A DNA stretch of 64,000 bases, from the IMG/VR virus record IMGVR_UViG_3300013121_000027, positions 64,001 through 128,000 of that record, one strand, 5' to 3'. This DNA comes from a virus. Taxonomy: Duplodnaviria > Caudoviricetes. Numbering within the stretch: position 1 is the stretch's first letter; the number at the start of each line of letters is the position of its first letter. The notes beneath the pieces are model-generated. The model saw only the letters and a program-made list of their open reading frames with translations, was not told where the DNA came from and did no database searches. Shown here in pieces: positions 18,379 through 22,791 of this stretch. The position numbers and the translations under genes were made by a program.

Positions 18379-18443
18379 GTATGAACCGAATTTGAAGCGT
18401 TATCTTCTGGTGGTAAAATGCTTCATTGTTAACTTGTTCATAC
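18379..18443 (+). ncRNA. Y RNA-like unit 1
   Basis: GTATGAAC-CGAA...CTT-GTTCATAC stem; upper stem TGAAGCG/TGCTTCA; TTATC. Confidence 0.8.
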
Positions 18444-18453
18444 TCAAGTTTAA

Positions 18454-18531
18454 AGCTTTGAACCGAATTGAAAACGATTATCTAATTGTAAATAGAACCC
18501 AAACTCGTTTTCTATCAACTTGTTCATTGCT
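18454..18531 (+). ncRNA. Y RNA-like unit 2
   Basis: TGAAC-CGAA...CTT-GTTCA; GAAAACGA/TCGTTTTC; TTATC. Confidence 0.8.
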
Positions 18532-18538
18532 CAGTTTA

Positions 18539-18663
18539 GTTAGAGCCGAACTTCAATTGATTATCATAGGTTCGAATCCCATAACCCCTAACGGGGGTTG
18601 CGCACCGGCGTTTGGTGCACCCAGTATAGTTCTGGGTTTCAATTGGAAAATACTTGTTCTAAC
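18539..18663 (+). ncRNA. Y RNA-like unit 3 (T-loop plus three hairpins)
   Basis: GTTAGAGC-CGAA...CTT-GTTCTAAC; TTCAATTGA/TCAATTGGA; TTATC; GGTTCGAATCC. Confidence 0.82.
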
Positions 18664-18672
18664 ATTATTTAA

Positions 18673-18787
18673 ATCTTAAGCCGAATTTAAACGATTATCG
18701 CATATGGTTGACGAAGATGACACCAATAAGTCCATCTGAGCGGTTCGAATCCGCATTAAAATTCGTTTGAAATCCCTTGCTTAAGAT
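18673..18787 (+). ncRNA. Y RNA-like unit 4 (T-arm containing)
   Basis: ATCTTAAGC-CGAA...CTT-GCTTAAGAT; TTTAAACGA/TCGTTTGAA; TTATC; GCGGTTCGAATCCGC. Confidence 0.82.
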
Positions 18788-18794
18788 ATTTTTA

Positions 18795-18929
18795 TGTCAA
18801 AGCCGAATAAAATTCTTTATCGCCTTTCAAGCGGGTGGTCACAGGTTCAAATCCTGTCAAGGGCTAATTCCCTTTGTAGCTCAGTCCGGTAGAGCACCTA
18901 AACGAGGATTTTAAAAACTTGTTTTGACG
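18795..18929 (+). ncRNA. Y RNA-like unit 5 (YrlA-type, circularly permuted tRNA mimic)
   Basis: TGTCAAAGC-CGAA...CTT-GTTTTGACG; T-arm ACAGGTTCAAATCCTGT, capped acceptor stem, then D-arm TAGCTCAGTCCGGTAGAGCA. Confidence 0.88.
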
Positions 18930-18936
18930 CCCTCTA

Positions 18937-19098
18937 ATTAAGAACCGAATTTAAACGATTATCATTTACCATACAACGGCAGAGATAGTATCGAAGCCAA
19001 CAAGAAGTCTCCTTGTAAAAAGAGAAAGATAAGCTACAAATAAGCGGAATCGCTGTAGTAATACAGTTATAATTCGTTTGAAGCAACTTGTTCTTAAT
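18937..19098 (+). ncRNA. Y RNA-like unit 6 (long A-rich cargo)
   Basis: ATTAAGAAC-CGAA...CTT-GTTCTTAAT; TTTAAACGA/TCGTTTGAA; TTATC. Confidence 0.8.
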
Positions 19099-19106
19099 AT
19101 CTCTTA

Positions 19107-19195
19107 ATCTTAAACCGAAATAATATGGTTCTCAGCAGCGTCTAACAGACAGTGGTTCGACTCCACAACCCGTATTAGCTCAACTTGTTTAAGAT
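19107..19195 (+). ncRNA. Y RNA-like unit 7 (T-arm containing)
   Basis: ATCTTAAAC-CGAA...CTT-GTTTAAGAT; TAATATGG/CCGTATTA; GTGGTTCGACTCCAC. Confidence 0.8.
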
Positions 19196-19243: not shown

Positions 19244-20827
19244 ATGACTACCGATCCTCTGATGCAGTTCAATATGCAGACCACTCCTCAGACTCAGCAA
19301 GCTGATAAGGCTCAGGTCCAGAATAATGCTGGTGGGTTTTCTTTTGAGGTTTCTACCGATCAGCGTCTGCTTCGTTTCTTAATTCTTGGTACTTGGGGCG
19401 GAACTTATTACGTCTCTGAGCAGAAGCTTACTAAGGATTCTTTCGAGAATGTTAAGAAGCTGGTTGACATTGACGGAAAGAAGGTTGTTGATATGGTACT
19501 TGATGTATCGCTCAACAACCGTGCTTATAAGCAGAACCCAACTCTGTTCACTCTCGCTGTAGCTTCTGCCGCTGATGACGTTGAGACTCGTCGCTATGCT
19601 CTTGCCGCTGTAGAAAAGGTATGCCGTACTGGCACCATGTTCTTCCAGTTCCTTGCTTATACTGAGCAGTTCCGTGGCTGGGGTTCCGCTCTTCAGAAGG
19701 CTGCTGCCAATTGGTACACTAATAAGACTCCCGATCAGCTTGCTAATCAGCTTGTCAAGTACCGTCAGCGTGATGGTTGGACTCACCGTGACGTTTTGCG
19801 TCTTGCAAAGCCTAAGATCGCCGCTGACAACCCTATCACGCCAGCTATTCGTTGGACCGTAGGTAAGGATACCGATCCCATTCTGCTTCCAGAGCTGATC
19901 TATGGCTTCCAGGAAGCTCAGAAGGTCACCAATGCTAAGGAGTGGGTGAAGCTTATCGAGCAGTATAAGCTTCCTTGGGAAGCTCTGCCAACCCAGGCTC
20001 TCAATGAGCCTTTGGTTTGGGAAGCTCTTGCTCCCCATATGGGATTGACTGCCTTGATTCGTAATCTTGGTAAGATGAGCGCCTGTGGTGCTCTTGTAAA
20101 CCATAGTGATCTTTCTAAGATTGTCAATGGTCGCCTCAGCGACAAGGAAGCATACCTCAAGGCTCGCGTACATCCAATGCAAGTTCTTCTTGCTCAGAGT
20201 GTTTACTCTGCTGGACGCGGCTTTAAGGGTAATAATACCTGGAATCCAGTTGCAACTGTTGTAGATAATCTTAATGAGGGATTCTATGCTGCATTTGGCA
20301 ACCTTCCAGAAACTGGTAAGCGTCGTATGCTTGCCATTGACGTGTCTGGGTCAATGGGCATGGGCACAATTGCTAATACCTTCTTGACGCCTCGTGATGC
20401 CTCTGCTGCACTTGCTATGGTAGCCCTTCACCAGGATCCGGAAAGCTATACCTTTGGCTTCTCTGGTGGCTTCATTCCTCTTGGCTTGTCCAAGGGTATG
20501 CGCTTGGATTCTGTTATTAAGAAGGTCAATGGTCTTCCTTTTGACAGAACCGATTGTGCTCTGCCTATGGTACACGCAAAGAAGGATCAATTGAAGGTGG
20601 ATTCATTTGAAATCTATACTGACAACGAGACCTGGGCTGGTAAGATTCATCCTCATCAGGCATTGAAGGACTACCGTGCTTGGTCTGGCATCAATTCCAA
20701 GTTTGTTGTAAATGGTATGGTCGCAAACAACTTTACTGTTGCCGATCCTAAGGATCCAGGATCGATCGACGTAGTTGGTTTCGATGCCTCTACCCCAAGC
20801 ATGGTATCAGATTTCATTTGCCAATAA
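19244..20827 (+). CDS. rsr: Ro60/TROVE-domain RNA-binding protein
   Basis: QVQNNAGGFSF, LLRFLILGTWGGTYY, KYRQRDGWTHRDVLRLAKP, ALIRNLGKM, vWA DVSGSM, YTDNETW, VVGFDA; SD AAGGAG. Confidence 0.96.
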   Translation: MTTDPLMQFNMQTTPQTQQADKAQVQNNAGGFSFEVSTDQRLLRFLILGTWGGTYYVSEQKLTKDSFENVKKLVDIDGKKVVDMVLDVSLNNRAYKQNPTLFTLAVASAADDVETRRYALAAVEKVCRTGTMFFQFLAYTEQFRGWGSALQKAAANWYTNKTPDQLANQLVKYRQRDGWTHRDVLRLAKPKIAADNPITPAIRWTVGKDTDPILLPELIYGFQEAQKVTNAKEWVKLIEQYKLPWEALPTQALNEPLVWEALAPHMGLTALIRNLGKMSACGALVNHSDLSKIVNGRLSDKEAYLKARVHPMQVLLAQSVYSAGRGFKGNNTWNPVATVVDNLNEGFYAAFGNLPETGKRRMLAIDVSGSMGMGTIANTFLTPRDASAALAMVALHQDPESYTFGFSGGFIPLGLSKGMRLDSVIKKVNGLPFDRTDCALPMVHAKKDQLKVDSFEIYTDNETWAGKIHPHQALKDYRAWSGINSKFVVNGMVANNFTVADPKDPGSIDVVGFDASTPSMVSDFICQ

Positions 20828-20972: not shown

Positions 20973-21728
20973 ATGACAAGAATCTTACTCGCAGGCGATA
21001 TACACGCCTCTCATTATCAAATAAAACTTTTAATTGAGAAAGCGCAACAATCTCATTGTACTCATATCATAGCCCTTGGGGATTTTGGATTTTTCCCTGG
21101 CAATAGATACTTTAATGATTTCTTATCTAAAGTGAATTATATGGTTTGTGATGCGGGAATTCATTTCTGGTGGCTTGATGGGAACCATGAAAATCACGAC
21201 GCCTTAGATGTGATGACACAGGGTAGAAACGATCAGATGTTCATCACCTCTTATAATGGAACCAGTTATAGTAATATTTATTATCTCCCAAGAGGATATA
21301 GATTTGAACTTGACGATGTAAAATTTATGTCATATGGTGGAGCTTATTCCGTTGATAAAGATGGACGTACGCAAGGCTTTGATTGGTTCCCGCAGGAAGA
21401 ACCTGATATCGCACATATCTCTAATCTTTCAGACGATCCAGTTGATATTTTACTCACTCATGACATACCTTATGACGATGCTTTTGTTTATCATAATGAA
21501 AGCATTAGTCAACTTGAACACGGAATAAAAAGTCAAAAAATTAGAAAAAGACTTTTATATTTGGCGCAAAAAATAACACCACGATATTGCTTCGGAGGTC
21601 ATCATCATCGTAGAGTTACCTATAATATACTCCATCGTAAAGGCGTTGCAGAGTGCCACATTCTTAGTTGTGGTGGGAATGGTAATGATTCTTGGTTTAT
21701 TCTTGACACGGAAAAAATAAATAAGTAA
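20973..21728 (+). CDS. calcineurin-like metallophosphoesterase
   Basis: GDIH, LGDFG, DGNHEN, LLTHD, GHHH. Confidence 0.92.
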   Translation: MTRILLAGDIHASHYQIKLLIEKAQQSHCTHIIALGDFGFFPGNRYFNDFLSKVNYMVCDAGIHFWWLDGNHENHDALDVMTQGRNDQMFITSYNGTSYSNIYYLPRGYRFELDDVKFMSYGGAYSVDKDGRTQGFDWFPQEEPDIAHISNLSDDPVDILLTHDIPYDDAFVYHNESISQLEHGIKSQKIRKRLLYLAQKITPRYCFGGHHHRRVTYNILHRKGVAECHILSCGGNGNDSWFILDTEKINK

Positions 21729-21756
21729 TTATTATACTCATTAAGGATACAATAAT

Positions 21757-22791
21757 ATGTCTGTTGCGACAGAAGAACTTACAATTGAAAAAATAAGTAA
21801 TTTGACTAAGGAAAAGATTAAGCCATTGAGAGACATTGGTTTGATGGCTCTTCCTTATGCTCATGGACCTCTTGGTAAGAATATCTTTACGATGGCATTG
21901 GATCAAGATTCTGAAGTCTTGAGATTCTGGACTGGTACTGCGGATCTTAAGGTGGTTGATACGACTACTGAACCGAAGAAGCAAGCCGTTATTAGGGTTG
22001 TTGAATCTGGACATACTTTAACTTTTAAATGTCTTGTTCGTCGTGGAACAATCAATTATGCACAAATCGATACCACACAACAAAACATTATAGATCGTGC
22101 ACAAAAAATTACTCCTGGTCTTTTACAGCGACTCATCAATACAACTCTTCCTCCTAAAACTATTTTTAAAGTAGCGAATGCAAAAACAGTTTTGACTAAC
22201 CGAGGCAACTTCCATGATGTTGAGGTTGGTGAAAGATTTGATTGCTATATCACCATTGAAGCTACTGTTCCTGCTTTTGACGATTCTTTTTTGATTGGTT
22301 ATGATGAGCAGAAATGCTTTATTTCTCAACTTCCAGTTCATGTCAATAAGGTTAAGGATGCTTATAAAGTTCTTCGTCCTGAAGGAGTAAGCCCTAAGGC
22401 TTTACGCCAAGGTGAATGGTTCTTTAATCCAATAAAAGATCCTGCTCTTATCGCTAAGTTGAATAAGATTGAAGAGAAACAAGCTCCTGCAGCAGATAGA
22501 AGAGGCTTAACTGGGCTCGATACTATGTTTGCTCGCGATTACTATGTTAAACTTCGCAACAAACTTGGAACACAGCACGTAACCCCCTCCTCTATACTTC
22601 GTTCTTTAGCAAGAGGATCTTCGCATCATGCCAACTACATTGATCATGCTGGTAAGAGATATGTAAAGGGTTCTGTTGTGGATTCTCGCAAAGCACGTCA
22701 TGCTCCATTAGAAATAAAGACCTGGCATGAAGTAATACGTAATCTTGAGAAGGTAATGCCAGTGACTGCTCGCCCCCGTAGATGGGATTAA
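21757..22791 (+). CDS. conserved phage hypothetical protein
   Basis: 344 aa ORF with RQGEWFF and His motifs. Confidence 0.6.
   Translation: MSVATEELTIEKISNLTKEKIKPLRDIGLMALPYAHGPLGKNIFTMALDQDSEVLRFWTGTADLKVVDTTTEPKKQAVIRVVESGHTLTFKCLVRRGTINYAQIDTTQQNIIDRAQKITPGLLQRLINTTLPPKTIFKVANAKTVLTNRGNFHDVEVGERFDCYITIEATVPAFDDSFLIGYDEQKCFISQLPVHVNKVKDAYKVLRPEGVSPKALRQGEWFFNPIKDPALIAKLNKIEEKQAPAADRRGLTGLDTMFARDYYVKLRNKLGTQHVTPSSILRSLARGSSHHANYIDHAGKRYVKGSVVDSRKARHAPLEIKTWHEVIRNLEKVMPVTARPRRWD

What the first reader, a model, noticed from the sequence alone, without database searches (positions are those of the whole stretch)
18795..18929. Y RNA unit 5 is a circularly permuted tRNA-Glu that keeps its anticodon loop
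Seen: the order is CGC-CTTTCAA-GCG-GG, variable GTGGTC-like linker, T-arm ACAGG-TTCAAAT-CCTGT, acceptor stem closed by a loop (CAAGGG..CCCTTTG), D-arm TAGCTCAGTCCGGTAGAGCA, then CC. Rejoining CC+CGC against GCGGG gives a perfect 5-bp anticodon stem with a UUC (Glu) loop. The Ro-binding stalk is inserted into the 5' strand of that stem. Established: YrlA mimics D/T/acceptor arms with the Ro stem replacing the anticodon arm. Inference: retaining the anticodon loop makes a non-chargeable full tRNA mimic, a plausible decoy for anticodon nucleases or tRNA-modifying enzymes, and shows how YrlA could arise from a tRNA.
Basis: partly seen in the sequence, partly recalled or inferred. Interest (0 to 1): 0.8.

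Follow-up and report, generated by a model that had tools for sequence, protein, structure and literature searches.

The report
Phage Y RNA with anticodon arm
A small RNA gene just upstream of a sludge phage's Ro60 gene is a back-to-front, unchargeable copy of a whole tRNA, anticodon arm included. The same extra arm, read in print as a "variable arm", turns out to be common in this RNA family.

Summary
Window 18796-18931 matches Rfam YrlA (46.4 bits, E 7e-9) apart from a 15-nt insert. That insert supplies a 7-nt-loop hairpin (CUUUCAA). Together with C27/C28 after the D arm it completes a 5-bp anticodon stem, and ARAGORN calls the re-permuted sequence tRNA-Glu(UUC).

Unit 5 is not unique. Of 60 YrlA-like modules beside related Ro60 genes, 34 have the same composite 5-bp stem with a 7-nt loop (shuffles give 3.9). 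The loops show U33, purine 37 and A38 in 32/34 each, with a free triplet. A pattern search that imposed neither pairing nor loop letters gave 30 sequences from IMG/VR (27 new): 30/30 paired, U33 27/30, R37 30/30, A38 29/30.

The published mycobacteriophage ET08 YrlA has this hairpin. Chen et al. 2014 called it the "V" (variable) arm, and Wang et al. 2018 state that YrlA lacks an anticodon loop.

The "Glu" label rests on the triplet alone. A ~90%-identical variant reads UUU, and the body is not close to the phage's real tRNA-Glu. Decoy function is untested.

Earlier notes of this scan describe related "inside-out" tRNA-shaped Y RNAs on other DNA. None of those shown makes this reading of the V arm.

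Verdict: a YrlA-class Y RNA of a widespread, under-described full-cloverleaf subclass.

The parts
18796..18819 (+). 5' strand of the Ro60-binding stalk. It holds GCCGAA at 18802-18807 (a partial match to GNCGAAN0-1G) and ends in the family's YUAYC motif (TTATC, 18817-18821), which runs into the next part.
   Evidence: The RCCGAA motif is shared by all seven units of the array. The motif definition is from Chen 2014.
18820..18835 (+). Anticodon-arm mimic: (U)CGC / loop CUUUCAA / GCG(G)G. Loop 18824-18830 = C32 U33 U34 U35 C36 A37 A38. G18834 and G18835 are positions 42 and 43.
   Evidence: The homologous hairpin shows covariation in relatives.
18836..18840 (+). Class-I-type 5-nt variable loop, UGGUC.
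   Evidence: Relatives carry AGGUC or UGGUC at the same place.
18841..18857 (+). T arm: ACAGG-UUCAAAU-CCUGU.
18858..18876 (+). Acceptor-like stem (6 bp, one G-U) closed by the 7-nt cap CUAAUUC. There is no free 3' end, so it cannot be charged.
18877..18898 (+). U8 A9, the D arm (18879-18895), A26, then C27 C28, which pair with G43/G42.
   Evidence: The 27:43 pair is C:G in nearly all relatives and G:C in L036.
18899..18931 (+). 3' strand of the stalk: linker UAAAC, then GAGGAUUUU pairing with AAAAUUCUU, then the conserved CUUGUU (18918-18923), then the terminal stem.
19244..20827 (+). Phage Ro60/Rsr gene (TROVE + vWA_Ro60 domains), the presumed protein partner.
18379..19195 (+). Array of seven Y-RNA-like units sharing the stalk motifs. 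Unit 5 is the only one with a full YrlA module.

Best explanation
Unit 5 is a YrlA-class Y RNA.

Anatomy. Its two ends pair into a stalk that carries the Ro60-binding motif. The phage's own Ro60 gene starts 313 nt downstream. The inner module folds as a complete four-arm tRNA cloverleaf in permuted order. The acceptor stem is capped by a loop, so the RNA cannot be charged. The D arm, 5-nt variable loop and T arm are canonical.

Anticodon arm. A local hairpin with a 7-nt U-turn-type loop (C32 U33 NNN A37 A38) stacks on one or two pairs made with C27(C28) just after the D arm. This rebuilds a 5-bp anticodon stem. The stalk leaves this stem between positions 27/28 or 28/29 through short single-stranded linkers.

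Status of each step:
- Shown: the anatomy, its conservation and its covariation in relatives.
- Inferred from the family: Ro60 binds the stalk and the RNA presents the tRNA-shaped module to a tRNA-binding partner, as Y RNAs tether Ro60 to PNPase.
- My inference: because the shape of the arm is conserved while its triplet varies freely even between near relatives, the partner probably reads a whole tRNA shape including an anticodon-type loop. Whether the triplet sets specificity is open.
For: - Rfam YrlA match: 46.4 bits, E 6.9e-9, full length, one 15-nt insert.
- Ro60 gene next door.
- ARAGORN calls tRNA-Glu(ttc) on the re-permuted sequence, and calls a tRNA on 41 of 45 re-permuted relatives.
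- 34 of 60 modules have a composite 5-bp stem with a 7-nt loop. Other loop lengths give 5-13; shuffles give 3.9 +/- 1.9, maximum 10 in 500.
- Loop letters in those 34: U33 32/34, purine 37 32/34, A38 32/34, with 20 different triplets.
- Thirty modules chosen by size class only, in a fixed register: 78% of cells paired against 64.7% in shuffles (0/500), and 24 double-sided changes against 8.3 (0/500).
- Pattern search of IMG/VR with the stem pairs and loop left free: 30 distinct sequences (27 new). Both free pairs formed in 30/30; U33 27/30, R37 30/30, A38 29/30. A Ro60 homolog lies in 26 of the 37 fetched stretches.
- The published ET08 YrlA has a 3+2 composite stem with loop AUUGAAA.
- A canonical 4-5-nt variable loop follows the hairpin.
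Against: - The nearest-neighbour MFE of unit 5 prefers a different 7-bp hairpin (AUCGCCU/GGGUGGU) that consumes the variable loop: -35.8 against -30.7 kcal/mol for the tRNA-like fold.
- The whole-RNA fold is not unusually stable (z = -1.7).
- The Rfam score is below the gathering cut-off of 69 bits.
- The Ro motif lacks the final G of GNCGAAN0-1G.
- There are no data on expression, Ro60 binding, modification or structure. The one RNA-library contig may be contaminating DNA.
- The comparison sets come from my own regular expressions, which demand well-formed arms. The sequences are related to one another, so counts overstate independent events.
Confidence: 0.75

Rival explanations
1. The hairpin is the 'V' stem-loop of Chen et al. 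2014, the counterpart of a class-II tRNA variable arm. On this view the stalk itself stands in for the anticodon arm, and no anticodon mimicry is involved.
For: Going 5' to 3' from D arm to T arm, the helices come in the order stalk, then hairpin. That matches the order anticodon arm, then variable arm. This is the published reading. ARAGORN makes the same kind of call on Gordonia phage Mareelih, where it reads part of a YrlA-like RNA as a long-arm tRNA-Leu.
Against: - The loop is 7 nt in 34 of 60 modules, and it carries U33, purine 37 and A38. From my own knowledge, variable-arm loops are 3-5 nt and lack this signature.
- A full class-I variable loop (A/UGGUC) lies between the hairpin and the T stem. 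A class-II arm leaves only 1-2 nt there.
- The base 3' of the hairpin pairs with the second base after the D arm, exactly as 43:27, with one compensatory G:C swap.
Confidence: 0.1
2. The module is a specific decoy or sensor. Its triplet is tuned to the tRNA that a host anticodon nuclease (or another anticodon-reading enzyme) attacks. The Ro60-bound mimic then soaks up the enzyme or reports its activity.
For: - The anticodon-loop shape is conserved while the triplet changes between near relatives whose stems stay identical: unit 5 UUC against UUU in a ~90% variant; L016/L018 GCU/ACU; L041/L094 CUU/GUU; L118a/b UCU/GCA.
- Position 34 is G or U in 27 of 30, and A only once, as in real tRNA sets.
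- The phage carries 22 tRNAs.
- Ro/Y RNA loci are linked in print to RNA repair after tRNA damage.
Against: - There is no nuclease, cleavage or binding datum.
- No RtcB or Rnl2-type ligase was found in this phage.
- A few triplets are not natural bacterial anticodons (AUG, ACU).
- A free triplet is equally what relaxed constraint would give.
Confidence: 0.2
3. In unit 5 itself the alternative hairpin (AUCGCCU/GGGUGGU) forms, so the tRNA-like core is disrupted. The anticodon resemblance would then be a relic without present structure.
For: It is the MFE structure. In the nearest-neighbour model it beats the tRNA-like folds by 4-5 kcal/mol.
Against: - The alternative pairing is not conserved in relatives, whereas the tRNA-like register is.
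- The energy model ignores the D/T-loop and variable-loop tertiary contacts. These contacts are documented in the YrlA crystal structure.
- In the ~90% variant the start of unit 5 has 3 changes in 69 nt, against about 10% in units 1-3.
Confidence: 0.07
4. Unit 5 is a true permuted tRNA gene that is processed into a working tRNA-Glu.
For: - The re-permuted sequence passes ARAGORN.
- M. smegmatis YrlA is cut by RNase P and receives CCA.
- Some relatives have ACCA at the start of the acceptor cap.
Against: - The acceptor stem is 6 bp, with C-C at 1:72.
- No bacterial enzyme is known to rejoin permuted tRNAs.
- The phage already has a normal tRNA-Glu(UUC).
- A close variant reads UUU.
- The RNA shares its stalk with six non-tRNA units.
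Confidence: 0.02

Closest known systems
YrlA (Y RNA-like A; Rfam RF02553; S. Typhimurium, crystal structure PDB 6CU1 as cited in bioRxiv 10.1101/312249)
   Same: - Ro60-linked.
- Stalk made by the 5' and 3' ends, carrying a CGAA-type motif.
- T arm, loop-capped acceptor stem and D arm in permuted order.
- Two to three pairs join the base of the variable loop to the strand after the D arm.
   Different: The Salmonella RNA and the Rfam consensus have no hairpin there. Wang et al. state that 'YrlA lacks the anticodon loop'. Unit 5 carries a 15-nt insert that supplies one.
Mycobacteriophage ET08 YrlA and the 'V' stem-loop of Chen et al. 2014 (PMC4201824)
   Same: Same hairpin at the same place. 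ET08 reads CUC-AUUGAAA-GAG followed by AG, which pairs with CU after the D arm.
   Different: In print the element is called less conserved and is equated with the tRNA variable arm. Here it shows the length, loop signature and neighbours of an anticodon arm.
D. radiodurans Yrn1 'anticodon arm' (Chen et al. 2014)
   Same: A Y RNA for which an anticodon-arm-like element (5-bp stem) was proposed.
   Different: Its orientation is different and its loop has 6 nt. It has no full D arm and no variable loop. The authors regard it as having evolved independently of YrlA.
Circularly permuted tRNA genes of red algae and archaea (cited in 10.1101/312249)
   Same: The acceptor stem is closed in the primary transcript and the ends lie elsewhere in the cloverleaf.
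   Different: Those transcripts are processed into working tRNAs by the splicing endonuclease and a ligase. Nothing here suggests such processing.
'Inside-out' tRNA-shaped Y RNAs noted by this scan on other genomes (e1-5529253, e1-5596806)
   Same: As described in those notes, a whole cloverleaf with a Ro60-binding stem as a side arm in the anticodon stem. This is the same five-helix design.
   Different: There the acceptor ends are open and the Ro stem is loop-closed. In unit 5 it is the reverse. I did not test those notes.

Membership tests
YrlA-class Y RNA (Chen et al. 2014; Rfam RF02553) | Encoded within a few kb of a Ro60/TROVE gene, on the same strand. | tested here: met
   Unit 5 ends at 18931. 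Ro60 (TROVE + vWA_Ro60) lies at 19244-20827 on the + strand.
YrlA-class Y RNA (Chen et al. 2014; Rfam RF02553) | T-arm-like and D-arm-like stem-loops with a closed acceptor-like stem-loop between them, T before D. | tested here: met
YrlA-class Y RNA (Chen et al. 2014; Rfam RF02553) | GNCGAAN0-1G motif near the 5' end, within a stem formed with the 3' end. | tested here: inconclusive
   The sequence is GCCGAAUA: the GNCGAA part is present but the closing G is absent. The stem with the 3' end is predicted.
YrlA-class Y RNA (Chen et al. 2014; Rfam RF02553) | Rfam covariance-model score at or above the gathering cut-off (69 bits). | tested here: not met
   46.4 bits, E 6.9e-9. This is an operational cut-off, not a biological feature. 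The published member ET08 scores 37.4, and all 25 viral records searched scored below it.
YrlA-class Y RNA (Chen et al. 2014; Rfam RF02553) | Bound by Ro60/Rsr; carries tRNA-type modifications. | not testable with these tools
   Needs immunoprecipitation and modification mapping.
Canonical tRNA | Cloverleaf in normal order with free acceptor ends. | tested here: not met
   ARAGORN finds no tRNA in the native order. The Rfam tRNA model gives 19.4 bits against a cut-off of 29.
Canonical tRNA | 5-bp anticodon stem and a 7-nt loop with U33 and purine 37. | tested here: met
   A composite stem is formed (3+2 or 4+1 pairs). The loop is C-U-UUC-A-A.
Class-II tRNA variable arm (the published 'V' reading) | Short loop (3-5 nt) and only 1-2 nt between the arm and the T stem (my own knowledge of tRNA structure). 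| tested here: not met
   The loop is 7 nt. Five to six nt (G + UGGUC) lie before the T stem. The same holds in relatives.

The most novel reading that the evidence does not exclude
Hairpin-class YrlA RNAs are Ro60-tethered, unchargeable full tRNA replicas. Their 'anticodon' is a fast-evolving specificity determinant. Phages (and bacteria) would use them as bait, sponge or damage sensor for anticodon-directed nucleases or modification enzymes, swapping the triplet as the opponent changes.
Probability: 0.2. Interest if true: 0.85.

Novelty: new variant of a known kind. Interest (0 to 1): 0.6.

Why it matters
The effector that YrlA RNAs present to Ro60 is still unknown. The field's working picture is a tRNA mimic without an anticodon loop.

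If a large share of YrlA RNAs in fact carry a conserved anticodon-type arm with a free triplet, three things follow:
- The unknown partner probably reads a whole tRNA, and possibly its anticodon. That narrows the candidates to anticodon nucleases, anticodon-loop modification enzymes and repair factors.
- The hypothesis becomes directly testable in tractable systems such as M. smegmatis with ET08-type phages, or Microbacterium phage FuzzBuster.
- It adds concrete sequence evidence for descent of YrlA from tRNA genes: an intact anticodon arm upstream of the T arm, and ACCA-like starts of some acceptor caps.

Tried and rejected
The closest Ro60 relatives (73% identity, P0002-P0004) could therefore not be fetched, and no true ortholog of unit 5 was aligned.
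- blastn of the array against GenBank phages gave no match.
- Exact peptide patterns from this phage's Ro60 found nothing in IMG/VR.
- Genome contigs gave only 2 loci.
- The genome search could not read the metagenome loci.
- RtcB and Rnl2-type ligase were not found in the phage. The Rnl1 search was uninformative because its control rang nowhere.
- The 344-aa gene after the phosphoesterase has no Pfam, PHROG, NCBIfam or PDB match.
- The reviews Sim & Wolin 2018 (PMC6047535) and Sim et al. 2020 (PMC10870794) are not held. Chen 2014 has no supplements on file. I therefore cannot exclude that the anticodon reading is already in print there.
- The short X9 contigs that match 18821-18858 are ordinary tRNA genes of other organisms, not variants of unit 5.
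- The X20 RNA-library contig does not prove transcription.
- I considered a specific kinship with tRNA-Glu and rejected it.
- Consensus scans show no obvious promoter or terminator between units.

Full report
**Setting.** The window is bases 64001-128000 of a 231-kb phage record with direct terminal repeats. Near-identical DNA occurs in several activated-sludge metagenomes. ORF 19244-20827 encodes a Ro60/Rsr ortholog (TROVE 4.6e-40, vWA_Ro60 2.9e-55). The 820 nt before it hold seven back-to-back units. They share a terminal stem, an RCCGAA bulge, an inner stem ending in UUAUC, and a 3' CUUGUU. The finding concerns unit 5.

**Observation.** Rfam's YrlA model aligns end to end to 18796-18931 (46.4 bits, E 6.9e-9, below the 69-bit cut-off). 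Its only large departure is a 15-nt insert, 'aucgccuuucaagcg', between the stalk and the pairs that precede the variable loop.
- The insert contains CGC-CUUUCAA-GCG.
- The next two bases, GG, can pair with CC just after the D arm.
- Joining 18870-18898 to 18821-18864 gives a 73-nt sequence that ARAGORN calls tRNA-Glu(ttc), with a regular cloverleaf. The native order gives no call.
- The same stem can be divided 4+1 (U18820-G18834 local, C27:G43 remote) instead of 3+2.

**Is it chance? Relatives.** I collected Ro60 loci from IMG/VR and metagenomes. I scanned them for modules with a perfect T arm, a capped acceptor stem and a D arm.
- Of 60 distinct modules, 34 have a composite 5-bp stem with a 7-nt loop directly 5' of a 4-5-nt variable loop.
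- The same test with loops of 3-6 or 8-11 nt gives 5-13. Shuffling the upstream 30 nt gives 3.9 +/- 1.9, with a maximum of 10 in 500.
- About four of the 34 are false positives (one real tRNA, three that use the stalk motif).
- The loop letters were not part of the test. They read U33 in 32/34, purine 37 in 32/34, A38 in 32/34, C/A/U at 32, and 20 different triplets at 34-36.
- The distance from the YUAYC motif to the T stem is bimodal: 8-15 nt without a hairpin, 17-19 nt with one.
- Taking all 30 modules of the 17-19 class without regard to pairing, and one fixed register, 78% of cells pair (shuffles 64.7 +/- 2.4, 0/500; slid registers 43-68%). There are 24 double-sided changes (shuffles 8.3, 0/500). 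The two inner pairs take CG, GC, UA, AU and UG.

**Independent sample.** I searched IMG/VR with a pattern that fixed only GGTTATC, the spacing, GAG, NGGTY and the T arm. The two inner stem pairs and the whole loop were left free.
- It returned 37 stretches and 30 distinct sequences. Three come from contigs already in the first set.
- Both free pairs form in 30/30. U33 27/30, purine 37 30/30, A38 29/30, C32 22/30, with 18 different triplets.
- Position 34 is U or G in 27 of 30.
- A Ro60 homolog lies in 26 of the 37 fetched stretches.
- Re-permuting the hairpin-class modules makes ARAGORN call a tRNA in 41 of 45.

Unit 5 is therefore an ordinary member of a large subclass.

**What is in print.**
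- Chen et al. [quoted passage not shown] They equate it with the tRNA variable arm. An 'anticodon arm' is discussed only for D. radiodurans Yrn1, with a 6-nt loop.
- Wang et al. 2018 (bioRxiv 10.1101/312249) state that YrlA 'lacks the anticodon loop'. They note that most YrlAs 'resemble circularly permuted tRNAs' and cite a dimeric-tRNA origin model.
- The ET08 YrlA of Chen's Figure 1D reads CUC-AUUGAAA-GAG-AG-AGGUC ... GAGC-G-CU-UAAAC. This is a 3+2 composite stem with a U33/A37/A38 loop. So 'V' is this same element.
- Microbacterium phage FuzzBuster (CUGUUAA), Mycobacterium phage Myrna (AUGCGGA) and Gordonia phage Mareelih (AUUGGGA) have it too.
- None of the eight papers that hold both 'YrlA' and 'anticodon' states the anticodon reading in the abstracts or the passages I read. 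Two reviews were not available.

**Why an anticodon arm rather than a variable arm.**
1. The loop is 7 nt and carries the U33 / purine 37 signature.
2. A complete class-I variable loop (A/UGGUC) lies between the hairpin and the T stem.
3. The base after the hairpin pairs with the second base after the D arm, as 43:27. It is C:G almost everywhere and G:C in L036.

The rival reading rests on helix order (stalk first, hairpin second). It is the published one, and I give it about 0.1.

**Limits of the 'Glu' label.**
- The phage has 22 tRNAs, including a normal tRNA-Glu(UUC) with the same loop letters but a different stem and body.
- Re-permuted unit 5 is closest to the phage's Asp, Met and Phe tRNAs (51, 49 and 49 of 73 identical). 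Its real tRNA-Glu is not among the 12 closest listed.
- A 350-nt contig from a metatranscriptome library, about 90% identical, joins units 1-3 directly to unit 5. Unit 4 (18672-18793) is absent. It has C>T at 18828, which turns UUC into UUU.
- Other close pairs also keep the stem while the triplet changes: L016/L018, L041/L094, L118a/b, L120/L036.

**Weak points.**
- For unit 5 alone, the nearest-neighbour MFE prefers a hairpin that consumes the variable loop: -35.8 against -30.7 kcal/mol. That pairing is not conserved in relatives. The model also ignores tertiary contacts.
- Nothing shows expression, processing, Ro60 binding or modification.
- My module sets are not a census, and their members are related to one another.

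**Mechanism.**
- Shown: the anatomy and its conservation.
- Inferred from the family: Ro60 binds the stalk and the RNA presents its module to another protein. Examples in print are PNPase in D. radiodurans and in Thermus phage phiLo (PMC12135203).
- My inference: the partner reads a whole tRNA shape including an anticodon-type loop.
- The decoy or sensor idea fits the variable triplet and the phage setting, but it has no direct support. The phage lacks RtcB and Rnl2-type ligases.

**Verdict.** The uniqueness claim and the 'tRNA-Glu' identity are not supported, and function remains open. Unit 5 is a YrlA-class Y RNA of a full-cloverleaf subclass whose anticodon arm has, as far as I could check, been read as a variable arm.

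Noticed in passing
window 18672-18793 (unit 4): A ~90%-identical 350-nt contig in a metatranscriptome library joins 18671 directly to 18794. That relative therefore lacks unit 4 exactly, and units appear to be gained or lost as cassettes. In the same contig the cargo of units 2 and 3 carries about 10-15% changes.
   Followed up: partly
Acceptor-cap loops of YrlA-like modules in loci L002-L150 (e.g. L118, L115, L089, L147): The loop that closes the acceptor-like stem starts with AC in 14 of 74 modules and with ACCA in 4 of 74. Chance would give about 4.6 and 0.3. This looks like a relic of a discriminator plus CCA end, as a tandem-tRNA origin would predict. Unit 5's cap (CUAAUUC) does not show it.
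   Followed up: partly
L144 5230-5318 (Gordonia phage Mareelih, OP820470.1): The GenBank record and ARAGORN both call a tRNA-Leu(gag) here. It overlaps tRNA-Gln by 16 nt. It covers the 5' part of a YrlA-like RNA (GGCCGA ... GGUUA-UCGA-AUUGGGA-UCGA-G-AGGUU, T arm, capped acceptor stem, D arm) and is probably a mis-call.
   Followed up: partly
L143-L149 (seven annotated GenBank phages with Ro-like genes): None of the seven annotated records lists a Y RNA next to its 'Ro-like RNA binding protein' gene; an eighth record fetched, L150, has no annotation at all. My scan or Rfam finds a YrlA-like module in at least five of them.
   Followed up: partly
window 18379-18443 (unit 1): Here the UUAUC motif itself forms the 5' strand of a 5-bp hairpin with a 7-nt loop, UUCUGGU.
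   Followed up: partly
IMG/VR loci L151-L187 and the first set: Among the mimic 'anticodons', position 34 is mostly G or U and almost never A. GUU (Asn-type, loop CUGUUAA) is the commonest triplet overall. No stop-reading triplet (CUA, UUA, UCA) was seen. I did not correct for relatedness.
   Followed up: no
window 20973-22791: Downstream of Ro60 lie a metallophosphoesterase (phrog_1649, 7e-30) and a 344-aa protein with no match in Pfam, PHROGs, NCBIfam or PDB sequences.
   Followed up: partly
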